Source of the DNA: an uncultured delta proteobacterium
GTDB lineage: Bacteria > Desulfobacterota > Binatia > DP-6
Reading direction: 5' to 3'
DNA: 64,000 bases
NCBI GenBank assembly: GCA_963815115.1
Contig: CAWFFN010000008.1
Location: forward strand, 192,001-256,000
In this document: in pieces, positions 27,500 to 42,074 of the stretch
Layout: each line of letters opens with the position of its first letter
How positions within the stretch are numbered: the stretch's first letter is position 1
Translations under genes and position numbers: made by a program
The notes under the pieces: model-generated
The model's database searches: none
The model's input: only the letters and a program-made list of their open reading frames with translations
What the model was told of the DNA's origin: nothing

Positions 27500-27913
27500 T
27501 CACTCCAGAGCCCGAGGAGCGTGCAGGGTTATCGGGAGTACTCGCGCATAGTGCTGGAAGTCGCCGTCAGTCGTCAGAATGCCAAGCCCGCGTCTGTGCC
27601 CGATCGCGCACAGGAGGAAATCCGCGTTTGATCCCTGGATCCCGCGTGATCGGCATAGGTTGTAGAAACTGGCCGCATCTTCGTAGTCGGCTGTGCTGAG
27701 GGGGAGGTCCGGGAACGCCCGAAAGCGCTCGCGAAGGAGTTCGAACTGCTCGCGCGCTCTCACGCCCGACAGCAGCTCCTGGCGGATCGGACCGATCACG
27801 GCGGCACGCCCCTCGCCGATCAACTCCTGCAGCTCACGGCGGAAGGGACTGTCCTGTTCTTTCTTCCGGCGCAGCGCGAGCGACCATACCGGCGTGTCGA
27901 CCAGGATGTTCAC
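27500..27913 (-). CDS. vapC: PIN-domain toxin
   Basis: ILVDTPVWSL, QELLSG, DFLLCA, TTDGDF acidic motif set. Confidence 0.92.
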   Translation of the reverse strand: MNILVDTPVWSLALRRKKEQDSPFRRELQELIGEGRAAVIGPIRQELLSGVRAREQFELLRERFRAFPDLPLSTADYEDAASFYNLCRSRGIQGSNADFLLCAIGHRRGLGILTTDGDFQHYARVLPITLHAPRALE

Positions 27914-28110
27914 GAACGGCGGCGTTGTTTCTTGTAGTCCCAGTGCGGATCGAACTCGATCGTGCCGAACAGATCGAGGATCTTCGACTGGCGCCTGCGC
28001 TGGACGTATTCCTGCAGCGCTTGGGTGACCGTCTCCTTCTTCGTCCGGTGGCCACCGATGGCGCGCGCCTCTTCGAGGAGCCGGTCGTCGATCGCCAGAT
28101 TCGTCGGCAT
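27910..28110 (-). CDS. vapB: VapB-type antitoxin
   Basis: MPTNLAIDDRLLEEA...TKKETVTQALQEY; 4-nt overlap with the PIN gene. Confidence 0.92.
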   Translation of the reverse strand: MPTNLAIDDRLLEEARAIGGHRTKKETVTQALQEYVQRRRQSKILDLFGTIEFDPHWDYKKQRRRS

Positions 28111-28179
28111 GCGCATACTCTCACACAGGTCGGTGTGTAGCACAACCCATCCCGAGTCATGGCATCAGCAACGACACCA

Positions 28180-28324
28180 TGTGCATGGCCTTCCCCCCAC
28201 GAGCCACGCCGACGGTCCGGGCGCATTGCATCGCGGCGGAAACTGGTGTGGCGGCGGAGTCTTCACGCTGTTCGACTTCCTCCCGTCGCAGGTGAGGGTG
28301 GACTCGGGGTTCCGCTGTGTCTCA
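28180..28324 (+). pseudogene. C-terminal fragment of an FGE-sulfatase-like domain
   Basis: RGGNW...GFRC motif ending at the repeat; no N-terminus. Confidence 0.45.
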
Positions 28325-28366
28325 CTTCGGAGCTCCCTTTGGCGCGCGGGGATTGCGTCGGATAAG
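28325..28366 (+). repeat. Dispersed hairpin repeat copy A, left half (interrupted by IS110)
   Basis: CTTCGGAGCTCCCTTTGGCGCGCGGGGATTGCGTCGGATAAG, identical in copies B, C and D. Confidence 0.95.
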
Positions 28367-28408
28367 TTGCTCATGGCCCCTGCGGCCCCACCCTGGCGCA
28401 CGAAACCG

Positions 28409-28417
28409 TGGTACGCT
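28409..28417 (+). promoter_or_regulatory. Candidate extended -10 promoter for the IS110 ncRNA/transposase
   Basis: TGnTACGCT just upstream of the structured region. Confidence 0.4.
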
Positions 28418-28423
28418 GGAACG

Positions 28424-28586
28424 CCACGGCGGCGGAGAGCTCGGGAAATGGAGTGGTGCCTCCGAGCCCGTCGATAAGTTTGAGCCAGGGACCTTGCGAG
28501 CACCCCGGACGGTCGCCACGGCGACGTCGCTGTCGCCAGAGCACGCGTCCCAGGCTTCGATGACGCGGGTCCCGCGCCGCCGTCGC
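28424..28586 (+). ncRNA. Candidate IS110 bridge (seek) RNA
   Basis: Non-coding left end closed by a 9-bp stem ACGGCGGCG (28426-34)/CGCCGCCGT (28575-83); contains matches to target and donor junctions. Confidence 0.65.
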
Positions 28587-28603
28587 AGAAGGAGGGCCAC
28601 ACG

Positions 28604-29830
28604 ATGGAGGTGTTGCCTGCCCGCTGTGCCGGCCGCGACGTGCATCAAGCGACGGTCGTCGCCTGCGTGCGACGCGCCACGCGGAAGGCGGTGCGCCGGG
28701 AGACCCGGGAGTTCGGGACGTGCACGCGGGACCTGCTCGCGCTCGGGGACTGGCTGCGCACGCACGAGGTCACCCACGTCGTGATGGAGTCGACCGGGGT
28801 GTACTGGAAGCCCGTCTGGCACGTCCTGGCCGGGTCCGTCGAACTCGTCCTCGCCCATGCGACCGCGGTGCGCAACGTGCCTGGGCGCAAGAGCGCCGTC
28901 CGCGATGCGGCGTGGTTGGCGGATCTGCTCGCGCATGGCCTGATCCGGCCGAGCTTCGTGCCCGCCGCGGCGACGCAGGAGCTCCGGGGGCTCACGCGGA
29001 CCCGGACGCAACTCGTGCGCGAGCATACCCGGCACGCGCAGCGCGTCCACAAGGTCTTGGAGGACGCCAACCTCAAGCTCGCCACCGTGTTGGCGGACGT
29101 GTTCGGCAGCGCGGGGCGCGCGATCCTGGCGGCACTGGTGGACGGGGAGACGGACCCGGCGCGCCTGGCCGCGCTGGTCACCACCCGGGTCCAGGCCCCG
29201 CGGGCCGCGCTGACCGCGGCGCTGCACGGGACGGTCACCGACTACCATCGGTTCGAGTGGCGCCTCCACCTCGAGCGCATGGCCCAGCTCGATCACGCCA
29301 TCGCGGAGGTCGAAGAGCGCATCACCCATGCGCGCGCCCCCTTTGCGCTCGTCGTCGAGCGGCTCACGACCATCCCCGGGATCAGCCCGACGACGGCGCA
29401 TATCCTGCGCGCCGAGATCGGCCGCGACATGACGCGGTTTGCCACGGCTGGGCACCTGGTGGCGTGGGCCGGCCTCTGCCCCCGCCTCGACGAGAGCGCC
29501 GGCAAGCGCCGCTCTGTCCGCGTCCGCAAGGGCGGCCGGTGGCTCAAGACCGCGCTCGTCCAAGCGGCCTGGGCCGCCATCAAGGTGAAGGACTCCTACG
29601 TCCAGGCGCAGTACGTGCGCCTCAAGGCGCGGCGCGGGCCGAAGCAAGCCATCATCGCGGTGGCCGCCTCGATGCTCGTGGCCGCCTACCACATGCTGCG
29701 CGACGCGACCAACTACTGCGACCTCGGCGCTCACTACTTCGACCGCCGCGACACGCGCCGCGTCGCCGCCCGCCTCGTGCGCCGCCTCACCCAACTCGGC
29801 TACGCCGTCGAACTGCGGCCCGCCGCTTGA
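28604..29830 (+). CDS. IS110-family transposase/recombinase (third DEDD Asp replaced by Ala)
   Basis: DVHQ, MESTGVYWKP, GRKSAVRDA, TIPGI, WAGLCP..ESAGK, AIIAVA; AAGGAGG RBS. Confidence 0.96.
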   Translation: MEVLPARCAGRDVHQATVVACVRRATRKAVRRETREFGTCTRDLLALGDWLRTHEVTHVVMESTGVYWKPVWHVLAGSVELVLAHATAVRNVPGRKSAVRDAAWLADLLAHGLIRPSFVPAAATQELRGLTRTRTQLVREHTRHAQRVHKVLEDANLKLATVLADVFGSAGRAILAALVDGETDPARLAALVTTRVQAPRAALTAALHGTVTDYHRFEWRLHLERMAQLDHAIAEVEERITHARAPFALVVERLTTIPGISPTTAHILRAEIGRDMTRFATAGHLVAWAGLCPRLDESAGKRRSVRVRKGGRWLKTALVQAAWAAIKVKDSYVQAQYVRLKARRGPKQAIIAVAASMLVAAYHMLRDATNYCDLGAHYFDRRDTRRVAARLVRRLTQLGYAVELRPAA

Positions 29831-29855
29831 GGTGTGCCGATCAGTTTCGTACCAG

Positions 29856-29904
29856 GCCTTTTCCGTCACCTTTCACGAAAAGGGCGTTCATGGCGCCTAT
29901 GTCC
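29856..29904 (+). repeat. Dispersed hairpin repeat copy A, right half
   Basis: GCCTTTTCCGTCACCTTTCACGAAAAGGGCGTTCATGGCGCC, identical in B and D. Confidence 0.95.
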
Positions 29905-30211
29905 TGATCGTCGGGGCGGCGTATGCGATGCCCTCGGGCTCGATGCCGGCGTGCTCGCCGCCGCCGTGCGGGCGCGGTCGCCCGCGTGATCACGCCCGGC
30001 GTCACTCGTCGGCAAACACATCTGGTTCCTTCCGCCAATCGTCCAAACTGATCCTGAAATCGGGCGGAAATTTTCTGAGACGGCGGTGCTCACCGGCCTT
30101 CTTCAGTCGCGCATTCTCGTCCCATGCCCGCCTGTCCGACCCAACCCGCTGACTGCTGAATAGAGCGTCCGGGCGGGGGAGCACCAAGATGCAGAAGCAG
30201 GCCCGCGCGGG

Positions 30212-30531
30212 TCAGAGTCCGAGTGCCACGAAGTTGTCGCACAAGGCGACTGCGCTTATGGTCCCGTCGGCTGCGAAGCCGAGGGGGACCCCGCAATGCA
30301 CCTGTCCCAGTCCCCCCTCGTCGGTGAAGACGAAGCCCGGTTGGTCGGGCACCAAGAGCTCGTGGCATACACACGCGACCTTCATCTTGGCATGCTCCCC
30401 GGGGCTAATTGGGGAGCGACCTTCCCGATCAGCCTGTTGAACGTGTCCTGGTCGGTGGCGGCAGCAGGCCTCGCGGTGACCCCCCCCGCCAGCACGGCCA
30501 GCAGCCCGAGTGTCCAATACCGATGTGTCAT
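30212..30531 (-). pseudogene. Small secreted Cys-containing protein, frameshifted
   Basis: MTHRYWTLGLLAVLAGGVTARPAAATDQ signal peptide, continuing in another frame KVACVCHE...CDNFVALGL*. Confidence 0.55.
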
Positions 30532-34525: not shown

Positions 34526-34627
34526 CCCCCTTCGGAGCTCCCTTTGGCGCGCGGGGATTGCGTCGGATAAGGCCTTTTCCGTCACCTTTCACGAAAAGGG
34601 CGTTCATGGCGCCCATGTCCCCGACGA
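34526..34627 (+). repeat. Dispersed hairpin repeat copy B (empty IS110 target)
   Basis: Contiguous left and right halves; AG core at 34570-34571. Confidence 0.95.
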
Positions 34628-36341: not shown

Positions 36342-36405
36342 TCGTCGCCGGACTTCGGCCTTATCCGACGCAATCCCCGCGCGCCAAAGGGAGCTCCGAA
36401 GGGGG
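36342..36405 (-). repeat. Dispersed hairpin repeat copy C (inverted, short-loop variant)
   Basis: Reverse complement reads CCCCCTTCGGAGCTCC...GTCGGATAAGGCCGAAGTCCGGCGACGA. Confidence 0.92.
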
Positions 36406-41974: not shown

Positions 41975-42074
41975 CCCCTTCGGAGCTCCCTTTGGCGCGC
42001 GGGGATTGCGTCGGATAAGGCCTTTTCCGTCACCTTTCACGAAAAGGGCGTTCATGGCGCCTAATCCGCGACGA
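41975..42074 (+). repeat. Dispersed hairpin repeat copy D (empty IS110 target)
   Basis: Contiguous left and right halves; AG core at 42018-42019. Confidence 0.95.

What the first reader, a model, noticed from the sequence alone, without database searches (positions are those of the whole stretch)
28424..28586. Candidate bridge RNA with readable target, donor and handshake guides
Seen: a 9-bp closing stem encloses two parallel motifs, GAGCCCG-TC-GATAAG-TT (28464-28480) and GAGCACG-CGTCCCAG-GC (28539-28555). The first matches the target flank plus core (GATAAG) and is followed by TT, the first donor bases. The second matches the donor flank plus core (CGTACCAG, 7/8) and is followed by GC, the first bases of the other target flank. 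GGAAATGG (28444-28451) matches the opposite-strand target GGAAAAGG at 7/8. Known: IS621 bridge RNA has target- and donor-binding loops plus handshake guides that pair after strand exchange. Inference: these are the programmable guides. The matches are short, so chance is not excluded.
Basis: partly seen in the sequence, partly recalled or inferred. Interest (0 to 1): 0.85.

Follow-up and report, generated by a model that had tools for sequence, protein, structure and literature searches.

The report
Bridge RNA of an IS110 element
The stretch is the guide-RNA ("bridge RNA") gene of a jumping gene of the IS110 family; it carries short copies of its own insertion site and of its own end, but in the reverse order from the textbook example IS621.

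Summary
Window 28367-29855 is an IS110-family insertion sequence (408-aa DEDD/Ser recombinase, 28604-29830). It sits in an ~86-bp repeat that also occurs uninterrupted in the same window, so the junctions and the 2-nt core (AG) are exact.

A covariance model built from homologues finds the same RNA upstream of the recombinase gene in almost all of 80 homologous loci.

Across 54 non-redundant homologues:
- The 7 nt after GAGCCCG equal left flank plus core.
- The next 2 nt equal the first 2 nt of the element in 45 of 54 loci (10.4 expected).
- The 7 nt after GAGCACG equal the element's right end plus core.
- The 5' side of the first loop is antisense to the right flank.

Two points fail. The second "handshake" (GC) has no family support (4 of 54 against 4.8 expected). 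No guide for the left-end half of the donor was found.

The guide order and core are inverted relative to IS621 and ISEc21 and resemble the IS1111 type. Expression is not shown. This is a known kind of system in a variant layout.

The parts
28367..29855 (+). IS110-family insertion sequence ('IS-A'), 1489 bp. The boundaries are ambiguous by the 2-nt core (AG at 28365-66 and at 29854-55).
   Evidence: Empty sites in the same window and a second copy on contig C5.
28325..28366 (+). Left half of the ~86-bp target repeat, ending ...GCGTCGGATA-AG.
   Evidence: 100% match to window 34530-34571 and 41978-42019, and to 36360-36401 on the minus strand.
29856..29899 (+). Right half of the target repeat (GCCTTTTCCGTCACCTTTCACGAAAAGG...). 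It starts at the foot of a small hairpin.
   Evidence: Matches window 34570-34616 and 42018-42063.
28372..28392 (+). Conserved left-end hairpin region (CATG + GGCC...GGCC + ACC). Its role is unknown.
   Evidence: A hairpin at LE +5 to +22 with different stem sequences occurs in most of 54 homologues; it is weak in this element.
28400..28406 (+). Left arm (ACGAAAC) of a subterminal inverted repeat. Its partner is GTTTCGT at 29844-29850.
   Evidence: The two arms co-vary across homologues.
28409..28417 (+). Possible extended -10 element (TGgTACGCT), 7-9 nt upstream of the RNA's first helix. This is a visual guess.
   Evidence: Read by eye. The consensus scan found no sigma-70 site in 28250-28700.
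28426..28434 (+). P1, 5' strand of the closing stem.
   Evidence: 9 pairs, all with compensatory changes, 64.7% of cells paired.
28439..28442 (+). Basal stem of the target-binding loop, 5' strand (GCUC). It pairs with 28482-28485 (GAGC).
   Evidence: 93.6% paired; UA/CG exchange at the middle pair.
28443..28453 (+). 5' guide of the target-binding loop (GGGAAATGGAG), antisense to the right flank 29856-29865. In this element it is imperfect: 7/8 with a 1-2-nt register offset, and AG where most homologues have CT facing the core.
28454..28470 (+). Internal stem-loop of the target-binding loop: UGGUGC pairs with G(A)GCCCG.
   Evidence: 96.3% paired.
28472..28478 (+). 3' guide of the target-binding loop (CGATAAG), same sense as left flank LT-5 to LT-1 plus the core. 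It matches 6 of 7 here; C28472 faces G28360.
28479..28480 (+). Handshake dinucleotide TT, equal to the first two bases of the element (28367-68).
   Evidence: 45 of 54 homologues against 10.4 expected.
28488..28493 (+). Basal stem of the donor-binding loop, 5' strand (GGGACC). It pairs with 28568-28573 (GGUCCC).
   Evidence: 6 pairs, all with compensatory changes, 67.9% paired.
28494..28510 (+). 5' side of the donor-binding loop, with no guide assigned. GAGCA (28498-28502) is complementary to LE +2 to +6 (TGCTC, 28368-72), but the family gives no support.
   Evidence: Null results.
28511..28545 (+). Internal stem of the donor-binding loop (GGUCGC with GCACG), with an inserted hairpin 28520-28537.
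   Evidence: 97.1% paired. Copy 2 has the family-consensus U at 28511.
28547..28553 (+). 3' guide of the donor-binding loop (GTCCCAG), same sense as the right end LD-5 to LD-1 plus the core (GTACCAG, 29849-29855). It matches 6 of 7 here; the mismatch is at 28549.
28554..28555 (+). GC after the donor guide. It equals the first two right-flank bases here but not in the family.
   Evidence: 4 of 54 against 4.8 expected.
28575..28583 (+). P1, 3' strand of the closing stem. It lies 8 nt before the GGAGG ribosome-binding site (28591-95).
28604..29830 (+). Recombinase gene, 408 aa.
   Evidence: Pfam DEDD_Tnp_IS110 (9.3e-23) and Transposase_20 (8e-24). The only solved relative is the IS621 transposase, E 1.1e-9.
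29844..29850 (+). Right arm (GTTTCGT) of the subterminal inverted repeat.
34530..34616 (+). Uninterrupted copy of the target repeat (empty site).
41978..42063 (+). Uninterrupted copy of the target repeat (empty site).

Best explanation
Window 28424-28586 encodes the bridge RNA (seekRNA) of an IS110-family insertion sequence (28367-29855).

The RNA folds into a long closing stem that encloses two stem-loops of the same design. Each has a basal stem, a 5' single-stranded side, a conserved internal stem (UGKYGC with GAGCMCG) and a 3' single-stranded side.

In the first (target) loop:
- The 5' side is antisense to the right flank (plus the core in most homologues).
- The 3' side is the same sense as the last 5 nt of the left flank plus the 2-nt core.
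- Two further bases copy the first two bases of the element. This is a handshake guide that can pair only after strand exchange.

In the second (donor) loop, the 3' side copies the last 5 nt of the element plus the core.

Bound to the recombinase, the RNA would hold the excised circle's junction and an empty copy of the repeat together for crossover at the core, as shown for IS621. This step is inferred, not shown here.

Compared with IS621 and ISEc21, the polarity is inverted. The core is AG (or AA) on the RNA-sense strand, which is CT (or TT) on the other strand. [quoted passage not shown] If the site is read on the opposite strand, everything but the missing second donor guide becomes canonical: 5' guide same sense plus CT, then 3' guide antisense plus a 2-nt handshake. 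I therefore infer the same chemistry, with the RNA-recombinase cassette turned round relative to the crossover site.

This particular copy carries one mismatch in each 3' guide (28472 and 28549), so it may work below optimum.

The confidence of 0.9 is for 'a genuine bridge RNA gene with these guides'. For the inverted-site reading specifically I give about 0.6.
For: Element and site:
- The recombinase has both Pfam domains.
- A second copy lies in another copy of the same repeat.

RNA family:
- Model R1 matched 85 places in 91 sources, and once in the window, at 28406-28609 on the plus strand.
- It matched 9 places in the window's own genome.

Structure on 78 distinct rows:
- 79.9% of cells are paired, against 65.0 +/- 0.6 in shuffles.
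- The covariation score is 0.407 against 0.171 (0 of 500 shuffles reach it) and at most 0.187 with slid partners.
- Paired cells per helix: 93.6% (target-loop basal stem), 96.3% (target-loop internal stem), 97.1% (donor-loop internal stem), 64.7% (closing stem P1), 67.9% (donor-loop basal stem).

Guides in unselected loci:
- A G..CG + 8-mer whose last 6-8 nt recur just after the gene was found in 71 of 82 loci.
- With CM-aligned columns, the left junction was found in 67 of 85 rows and the right end in 75 of 85.

Positions not used to find the junctions:
- LT-5: 46 of 53 (14.7 expected).
- LD-5: 52 of 54 (22.0 expected).
- RD+1 and RD+2: 49 and 50 of 54; both together 45 of 54 against 10.4 +/- 2.7 (0 of 2000 permutations).

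5' target guide:
- The mean longest exact run against rc(LD2+core+RT10) is 5.09, against 3.35 +/- 0.12 after permutation.
- A run of 6 nt or more occurs in 23 of 54 loci against 1.7 expected (0 of 500 permutations).
- The same-sense RT, rc-LT and same-sense LT controls are null.

Core: AG in 46 of 54 loci and AA in 8 of 54, at both junctions. IS621 has CT, with the T nearly invariant (PMC11208158, passage seen).

Guide order in the literature:
- In ISEc21 the top-strand match is 3' of the bottom-strand match; in IS1111-type elements it is 5' (PMC11187229, sections 9 and 12).

A 91%-identical relative in a soil metatranscriptome contig has G at 28472 and A at 28549. That makes both 3' guides 7 of 7 to the same left-flank 7-mer and the same right end.
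Against: - No transcript is shown. The only RNA-library record is one 1765-nt contig of a 91% relative that runs from flank to flank. That could be read-through or DNA. The consensus scan finds no sigma-70 promoter.
- Rfam 15 has no match.
- MFE folding is no better than shuffles.
- In this element both 3' guides have a mismatch to their DNA (6 of 7 each). The 5' target guide fits only 7/8 with a register offset, and it has AG rather than CT facing the core.
- No guide for the left-end half of the donor was found, in five different tests.
- The second handshake has no family support.
- Junctions in homologues were located with the guides themselves, so positions LT-4 to core and LD-4 to core are circular. 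The 31 of 37 and 35 of 37 figures come from loci pre-selected for having a match.
- The P1 and donor-loop basal helices are paired in only about two thirds of cells, and on an alignment fitted to the model.
Confidence: 0.9

Rival explanations
1. Same bridge RNA, but without an inverted crossover site. The chemistry runs on the RNA-sense strand with an AG core, and evolution has simply swapped the two guides within each loop: an RTG-like guide at the 5' side and an LTG-like guide at the 3' side. In that case the 2 nt after the 3' guide would be a new bottom-strand handshake with no counterpart in IS621.
For: The strongly co-varying guides are the same-sense ones that read the left flank and the right end. 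In IS621 too, LTG and LDG are the long, strong guides (PMC11208160). The missing or weak guide would then be the RDG, which in IS621 is already discontinuous.
Against: This needs a different core (AG/AA) and a different placement of guides on the RNA scaffold. Reading the other strand instead restores CT/TT, the 5'/3' order and the handshake position all at once.
Confidence: 0.25
2. The matches in this element are chance or relics (for example a leftover junction from an earlier nested insertion). The region would then be only the leader of the recombinase mRNA.
For: For the single sequence, matches this good arise in 1.8% and 4% of shuffles. No transcript ends are known. The closing stem ends 8 nt before the ribosome-binding site.
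Against: Both matches together arise in 3 of 2000 shuffles. The same positions, in the same structural frame, track each homologue's own flanks and ends across phyla.
Confidence: 0.03
3. The RNA gene is genuine, but this copy is a decaying, immobile element. It has guide mismatches at 28472 and 28549, G at 28511 instead of the consensus U, and only two copies, about 0.7% apart.
For: Ten differences separate the two copies inside the element. In one search the window's copy is the locus that departs at LD-3 (53 of 54 agree). The 91% relative has the matching bases. IS621 tolerates guide mismatches poorly (PMC11208160, passage).
Against: The recombinase frame is open and has both domains. Both copies share the two guide mismatches and lie in different copies of the repeat, so the element moved at least once while carrying them, unless the second copy arose by recombination.
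Confidence: 0.3

Closest known systems
IS621 bridge RNA (Durrant et al. 2024, PMC11208160; Hiraizumi et al. 2024, PMC11208158)
   Same: - It is encoded in the long left end, upstream of a DEDD/Ser recombinase.
- It has two pseudo-symmetric internal loops, the first for the target and the second for the donor.
- Each guide includes the 2-nt core.
- A 2-nt handshake follows the 3'-side guide of the target loop.
- Insertion is into a repeat, without a duplication beyond the core.
   Different: - The recombinase is 408 aa, against 328 in the solved chain, and only remotely alike (E 1.1e-9).
- The core is AG on the RNA-sense strand, not CT.
- Same-sense guides lie on the 3' side and the antisense guide on the 5' side.
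- Both loops are enclosed by one closing stem, rather than standing in tandem after a 5' stem-loop.
- No second donor guide and no donor-loop handshake were detectable.
- There is a co-varying 7-13-nt subterminal inverted repeat.
ISEc21 seekRNA (IS110 type; Siddiquee et al. 2024, PMC11187229)
   Same: The non-coding region lies upstream, and the RNA carries short matches to both strands of the target.
   Different: In ISEc21 the top-strand match lies 3' of the bottom-strand match (section 12 of the paper). Here it lies 5'.
IS1111-type seekRNAs / bridge RNAs (ISEc11, ISPa11, ISKpn4; PMC11187229)
   Same: The order of the target matches is the same (top-strand match 5' of bottom-strand match), and subterminal inverted repeats are present.
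   Different: Their RNA lies downstream of the gene and their transposases are 330-350 aa. Here the RNA lies upstream and the protein is 408 aa, the size class that paper gives for the IS110 subgroup proper (395-455 aa).
REP-targeting IS110 elements ISPpu9 / ISPpu10 (PMC12288879; bioRxiv 10.64898/2026.03.19.712850; search listings and abstracts only)
   Same: Insertion is into copies of one conserved intergenic repeat that contains a hairpin.
   Different: Their sequences were not compared here. Whether target DNA structure matters for this element is untested.

Membership tests
IS110-family insertion sequence | Recombinase with an N-terminal DEDD (RuvC-like) domain and a C-terminal Transposase_20 domain | tested here: met
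   PF01548 scored 81.2 bits and PF02371 84.3 bits, both above their cut-offs. The G-L-x-P-x4-S motif aligns with the IS621 serine loop.
IS110-family insertion sequence | Site-specific insertion with no terminal inverted repeats and no duplication beyond a shared core dinucleotide | tested here: met
   The empty sites overlap both flanks by exactly 2 nt.
IS110 group (as opposed to the IS1111 group) | Long non-coding left end and short right end | tested here: met
   The left end is 237 nt (28367-28603) and the right end 25 nt (29831-29855).
IS621-type bridge RNA | Two internal loops, each with a basal stem, a 5' guide, an internal stem-loop and a 3' guide | tested here: met
   Helices 2-5 are supported. 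The parallel UGKYGC / GAGCMCG stems are 96-97% paired.
IS621-type bridge RNA | The target loop reads both halves of the target | tested here: met
   The 3' guide matches LT-5 through the core. The 5' side matches rc(RT) with 0 of 500 permutations reaching the observed value.
IS621-type bridge RNA | The donor loop reads both halves of the donor | tested here: not met
   The right-end half is read (52-54 of 54). No signal was found for the left-end half. Conserved left-end starts limit the power of these tests.
IS621-type bridge RNA | [quoted passage not shown] | tested here: not met
   The order is reversed, and the core is AG or AA on the RNA-sense strand. The feature is met if the site is read on the opposite strand.
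IS621-type bridge RNA | Handshake dinucleotides 3' of the 3'-side guides | tested here: inconclusive
   Target loop: 45 of 54 against 10.4 expected. Donor loop: 4 of 54 against 4.8 expected.
IS621-type bridge RNA | Transcribed, bound by the recombinase and required for recombination | not testable with these tools
   Only one flank-to-flank contig of a relative exists in an RNA library.
IS1111-type element | RNA downstream of the gene, and a transposase of 330-350 aa | tested here: not met
   The RNA is upstream and the protein is 408 aa. The criteria are taken from PMC11187229, section 6.
IS1111-type element | Subterminal inverted repeats of 7-17 bp | tested here: inconclusive
   Co-varying arms are present: the mean longest inverted match is 6.74 against 5.52 +/- 0.16 after permutation (0 of 300). 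They are placed asymmetrically, about 7 nt from the right end and about 33-45 nt from the left end.
Any Rfam 15 family | A match to a curated covariance model | tested here: not met
   There were 0 matches at E up to 10 in 27500-30500.

The most novel reading that the evidence does not exclude
The long-recombinase IS110 subgroup (about 400 aa, spread over many phyla) uses a bridge RNA whose polarity is inverted relative to IS621 and ISEc21. It also reads only three of the four half-sites by RNA. The left-end half of the donor would instead be recognised through the co-varying subterminal inverted repeat and the conserved left-end hairpin. This would be an intermediate between the IS110-type and IS1111-type designs, and would show that the RNA-recombinase cassette can be turned round relative to the crossover site.
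Probability: 0.3. Interest if true: 0.65.

Novelty: new variant of a known kind. Interest (0 to 1): 0.5.

Why it matters
Bridge (seek) RNAs are the only known natural RNAs that specify both partners of a recombination. All mechanistic work rests on IS621 and a few relatives.

This locus gives an exactly delimited natural example: empty sites, a second copy and about 80 homologues. It comes from a different, widespread subgroup. There the guides can be read off directly, the target-loop handshake is strongly conserved, and guide order and core are inverted.

If the inversion and the missing fourth guide are real, they bear on two things: how the scaffold positions DNA strands, and which features of a bridge system are essential for engineering.

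In itself, finding that an IS110 element carries a bridge RNA is expected since 2024.

Tried and rejected
- Rfam scan of 27500-30500 at E up to 10: nothing.
- Single-sequence folding: not better than shuffles.
- RNAalifold on the raw MAFFT alignment found only two of the five helices. I therefore wrote the structure by hand from the window's sequence and tested it.
- Longest-common-substring search between the left end and the region after the gene was too noisy. I replaced it with motif-anchored and CM-anchored searches.
- Fixed-register co-variation for the 5' target guide gave no signal because the loop length varies. The register-free run test did give one.
- Search for a donor guide to the left-end start: 9-mer sliding identity, right- and left-justified column scans, scans anchored on the conserved ATG, and run tests in four orientations on the 5' side and on the 3' tail. 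All were null. One position gave a z of 3.7, which I do not count.
- Donor-loop handshake: null.
- An extension of the 5' target guide complementary to the last two bases of the element: seen by eye in one subfamily (L063/68/82/84) and in L037, but not elsewhere. I make no claim from it.
- Sigma-70 and terminator scan of 28250-28700: 0 sites. The -10-like TACGCT is my own reading.
- Reading the inverted-repeat arms as promoter -10 elements: rejected as the sole explanation, because variants such as CGAAAC/GTTTCG co-vary yet are not promoter-like.
- Public runs: 20 of 22 listed rows hold part of the stretch, all as contigs. Laid runs: X18 gave one 1765-nt contig of a 91% relative, which shows no discrete RNA. 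X19 and X20 cover only 29646-29809. X1 (DNA) carries the element in pieces and one contig that joins 28364 to 29854, i.e. an empty site. None of this shows expression or its absence.
- Literature: searches. One search (bridge RNA with IS900/IS116/IS117/IS902/IS1547) listed no paper holding 'bridge RNA' among its 12 rows. I found no text describing an upstream bridge RNA with the reversed guide order. Figures are not held and supplements are closed, so Extended Data Fig. 10c and the supplementary data of PMC11208160, and the supplementary figures of PMC11187229, may well cover this subgroup.
- Papers, by what I saw: PMC11208158, PMC11208160 and PMC13626964, passages; PMC11187229, outline and sections 6, 9, 12, 13; 10.1101/2024.06.21.599552, passages (nothing useful); 10.64898/2026.08.14.744561, abstract and outline; the rest, search listings only.
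- My recollection of the IS621 RNA sequence was used only to orient my reading. It appears in no call, note or claim.

Full report
**1. What is there.**

The open frame 28604-29830 (+, 408 aa) carries both IS110-family domains: DEDD_Tnp_IS110 at 9.3e-23 and Transposase_20 at 8e-24. Its only solved relative is the IS621 transposase, and only remotely (E 1.1e-9, two stretches, with the serine-loop region aligned).

A search of the window's own genome with 28300-29900 returned three things:
- a second copy on contig C5;
- separate 42-47-nt matches to the two flanks, lying next to each other and overlapping by 2 nt at window 34530-34616 and 41978-42063;
- a left-half-only copy at 36360-36401 on the minus strand.

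Printing these stretches shows the uninterrupted site ...GCGTCGGATA-AG-GCCTTTTCCGTC.... The element is therefore 28367-29855, with AG as the shared core.
- The left end is 237 nt and the right end 25 nt.
- The exact 19-nt site occurs twice more in the genome, plus once with two mismatches.
- The second copy sits in a diverged copy of the same repeat. Inside the element it differs at 10 positions, two of them in the RNA region: 28511 G>T and 28570 T>G.

**2.

For this one sequence the matches are suggestive only. Among 2000 shuffles, 36 reach the left-junction match, 81 reach the right-junction match, and 3 reach both. Folding energy is uninformative and Rfam is silent.

**3. The comparative test.**

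A scan of one genome per species returned 80 loci whose recombinases are 41-61% identical to this one. They come from many phyla.

By eye, the 8-mer after G(A)GCACG already changes from locus to locus, together with the sequence that ends each element...ATTTTC-NNNNN-AG. Such a match was found in 71 of 82 loci. The 8-mer after GAGCCCG recurs 90-120 nt upstream. There it is followed by the same two bases as in the RNA and then by a conserved left-end start. Both junctions were found in 52 loci.

I aligned 37 non-redundant RNAs. I wrote a five-helix structure from the window's sequence, tested it and built a covariance model.
- The model matched 85 places in 91 sources. It matched once in the window, on the plus strand.
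- It matched 9 places in the window's own genome.

On the model-fitted alignment (78 distinct rows):
- 79.9% of cells pair, against 65.0 +/- 0.6 in shuffles.
- The covariation score is 0.407 against 0.171 (0 of 500 shuffles reach it).
- Slid partners reach at most 0.187.
- The target-loop basal stem and the two internal stems are 93.6-97.1% paired.
- The closing stem and the donor-loop basal stem are 64.7% and 67.9% paired, and every one of their pairs shows compensatory changes.
- The alignment is fitted to the structure, which favours it. The unfitted alignment gave the same ranking.

**4. Guides.**

With CM-aligned columns I located the left junction in 67 of 85 rows and the right end in 75 of 85. 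After removing near-duplicates and contig-end cases, 54 loci remained.

Positions LT-4 to core and LD-4 to core were used to find the junctions, so they are circular. The independent positions are:
- LT-5: 46 of 53 (14.7 expected).
- LD-5: 52 of 54 (22.0 expected).
- The two bases after the target guide: 49 and 50 of 54 equal to RD+1 and RD+2. Both together agree in 45 of 54 loci against 10.4 +/- 2.7 after permutation (0 of 2000).

The base before the 7-mer agrees less often than chance (5 of 37 against 9.9), so the guide is 7 nt long.

The 5' side of the target loop carries the reverse complement of the right flank, in most loci ending in the complement of the core.
- The mean longest exact run is 5.09 against 3.35 +/- 0.12 after permutation.
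- A run of 6 nt or more occurs in 23 of 54 loci against 1.7 expected (0 of 500 permutations).
- The three other orientations are null (an earlier version of the test is).

The two bases after the donor guide do not follow the right flank (4 of 54 against 4.8). The window is the only locus with GC there.

No part of the donor loop follows the start of the left end.

**5. This copy.**

- The 3' target guide CGATAAG faces GGATAAG (6 of 7).
- The 3' donor guide GTCCCAG faces GTACCAG (6 of 7).
- In one search, agreement at LD-3 is 53 of 54, and the window's copy mismatches there.
- The 5' target guide fits 7/8 only with an offset, and it has AG where most homologues have CT.
- A 1765-nt contig from a soil metatranscriptome, 91% identical, has G at 28472 and A at 28549. 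It also has the same left-flank 7-mer and the same right end, so in that relative both 3' guides are perfect. That contig runs from flank to flank and does not show a discrete RNA.

**6. How it compares.**

[quoted passage not shown] The 3' side pairs with the top strand, followed by the handshake bases. LD lies in the right end, and transcription runs from the RE-LE junction into the left end (passages).

ISEc21 has the same order. IS1111-type seekRNAs have the opposite order and lie downstream of the gene.

Here the RNA lies upstream, but the order is the IS1111 one. The core is AG (46 of 54) or AA (8 of 54) on the RNA-sense strand, which is CT or TT on the other strand. That fits the IS621 rule that the T is nearly invariant and the C less so.

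Reading the site on the other strand makes three features canonical at once: the loop sides, the core, and the position of the handshake. I therefore favour an inverted crossover site (inference). The rival is a within-loop swap of guides.

The protein's size (408 aa) is that of the IS110 subgroup proper as given in PMC11187229, section 6. I could not build the tree that would settle its placement.

**7. Other features.**

Inverted repeat:
- A 6-13-nt inverted repeat joins the sequence just inside the right end (typically ATTTTC; here GTTTCGT at 29844-50) to a site 33-45 nt inside the left end (typically GAAAAT; here ACGAAAC at 28400-06).
- The arms co-vary. The longest inverted match averages 6.74 against 5.52 +/- 0.16 after permutation (0 of 300 permutations; 7 nt or more in 33 of 54 loci against 15.1).

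Left-end hairpin:
- A small hairpin with varied stems lies at left-end positions +5 to +22 in most homologues.
- 17 of 54 have z below -1.5 against mononucleotide shuffles, and the mean z is -1.0. It is weak in the window's copy.

Either feature could stand in for the missing donor guide. That is speculation.

**8. Verdict.**

This is a real bridge RNA gene with readable target, donor and one handshake guide. It belongs to a known kind, in a variant layout that I did not find described in text (searches; figures and supplements not seen).

Noticed in passing
window 28400-28406 and 29844-29850; homologous loci L020-L099: A co-varying subterminal inverted repeat. The right-end arm (typically ATTTTC) ends about 7 nt from the end, and the left-end arm (typically GAAAAT) lies 33-45 nt inside. 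Variants such as CATCTTC/GAAGATG, ATTTCCTC/GAGGAAAT and a 13-nt pair in L069 keep complementarity. This is an IS1111-like trait in an element with an upstream RNA.
   Followed up: partly
window 28372-28392; first ~30 nt of the left end in homologues: A conserved hairpin directly after a CATG, with many different stem sequences (GCGGC/GCCGC, GTCGC/GCGAC, GAGGCC/GGCCTC and others). It lies upstream of the modelled RNA, so the primary transcript may start nearer the junction, or it may act as DNA.
   Followed up: partly
L003-L006 (own genome, contig C9), locus positions ~1211-2800: A second family (69% nt identity, 4 copies) carries about 93 bp upstream of the site that its own target guide matches (GTAACAAG|TT lies inside the shared sequence). 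The flanks of the four copies match neither target guide. In L006 the right end abuts a further 91 nt of the element's start (...ACTTGGT-AG-CTGATAGG...). This looks like an element that grew by taking in its old left flank. Compare the 'half-match' expansion reported in bioRxiv 10.64898/2026.08.14.744561 (abstract only seen).
   Followed up: partly
window 28325-28366 + 29854-29899, 34530-34616, 41978-42063, 36360-36401 (-); G000:C9:1123504-1123554: The target is a low-copy ~86-bp repeat whose right half contains a hairpin (CCTTTTC...GAAAAGG). The element sits 2 nt before its foot. No conserved gene spans the repeat.
   Followed up: partly
window 28452-28453; same position in L022, L039, L043, L045: In a subset of elements the two bases of the 5' target guide that should face the core read AG (same as the core) instead of CT, while the adjacent bases still match the right flank. 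Unexplained.
   Followed up: no
window 28471; column before the 7-nt target guide in homologues: The base just 5' of the target guide equals the corresponding flank base less often than chance (5 of 37 against 9.9 expected), as if a mismatch marked the end of the duplex.
   Followed up: no
G000:C8:54098-54290 (-), G000:C7:1208760-1208937 (+), G000:C8:720984-721126 (+): Three further matches to the RNA model in the same genome, beyond the two IS-A and four IS-B copies. The last scores only 41.8 bits and looks partial.
   Followed up: no
run X18, contig laid on window 28359-29831: A 91%-identical relative at a different locus. It has the same left-flank 8-mer CGGATAAG but an unrelated right flank (CGGCGGT...) that does not fit its 5' target guide. 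This may be a half-matched insertion, or a chimeric contig.
   Followed up: no
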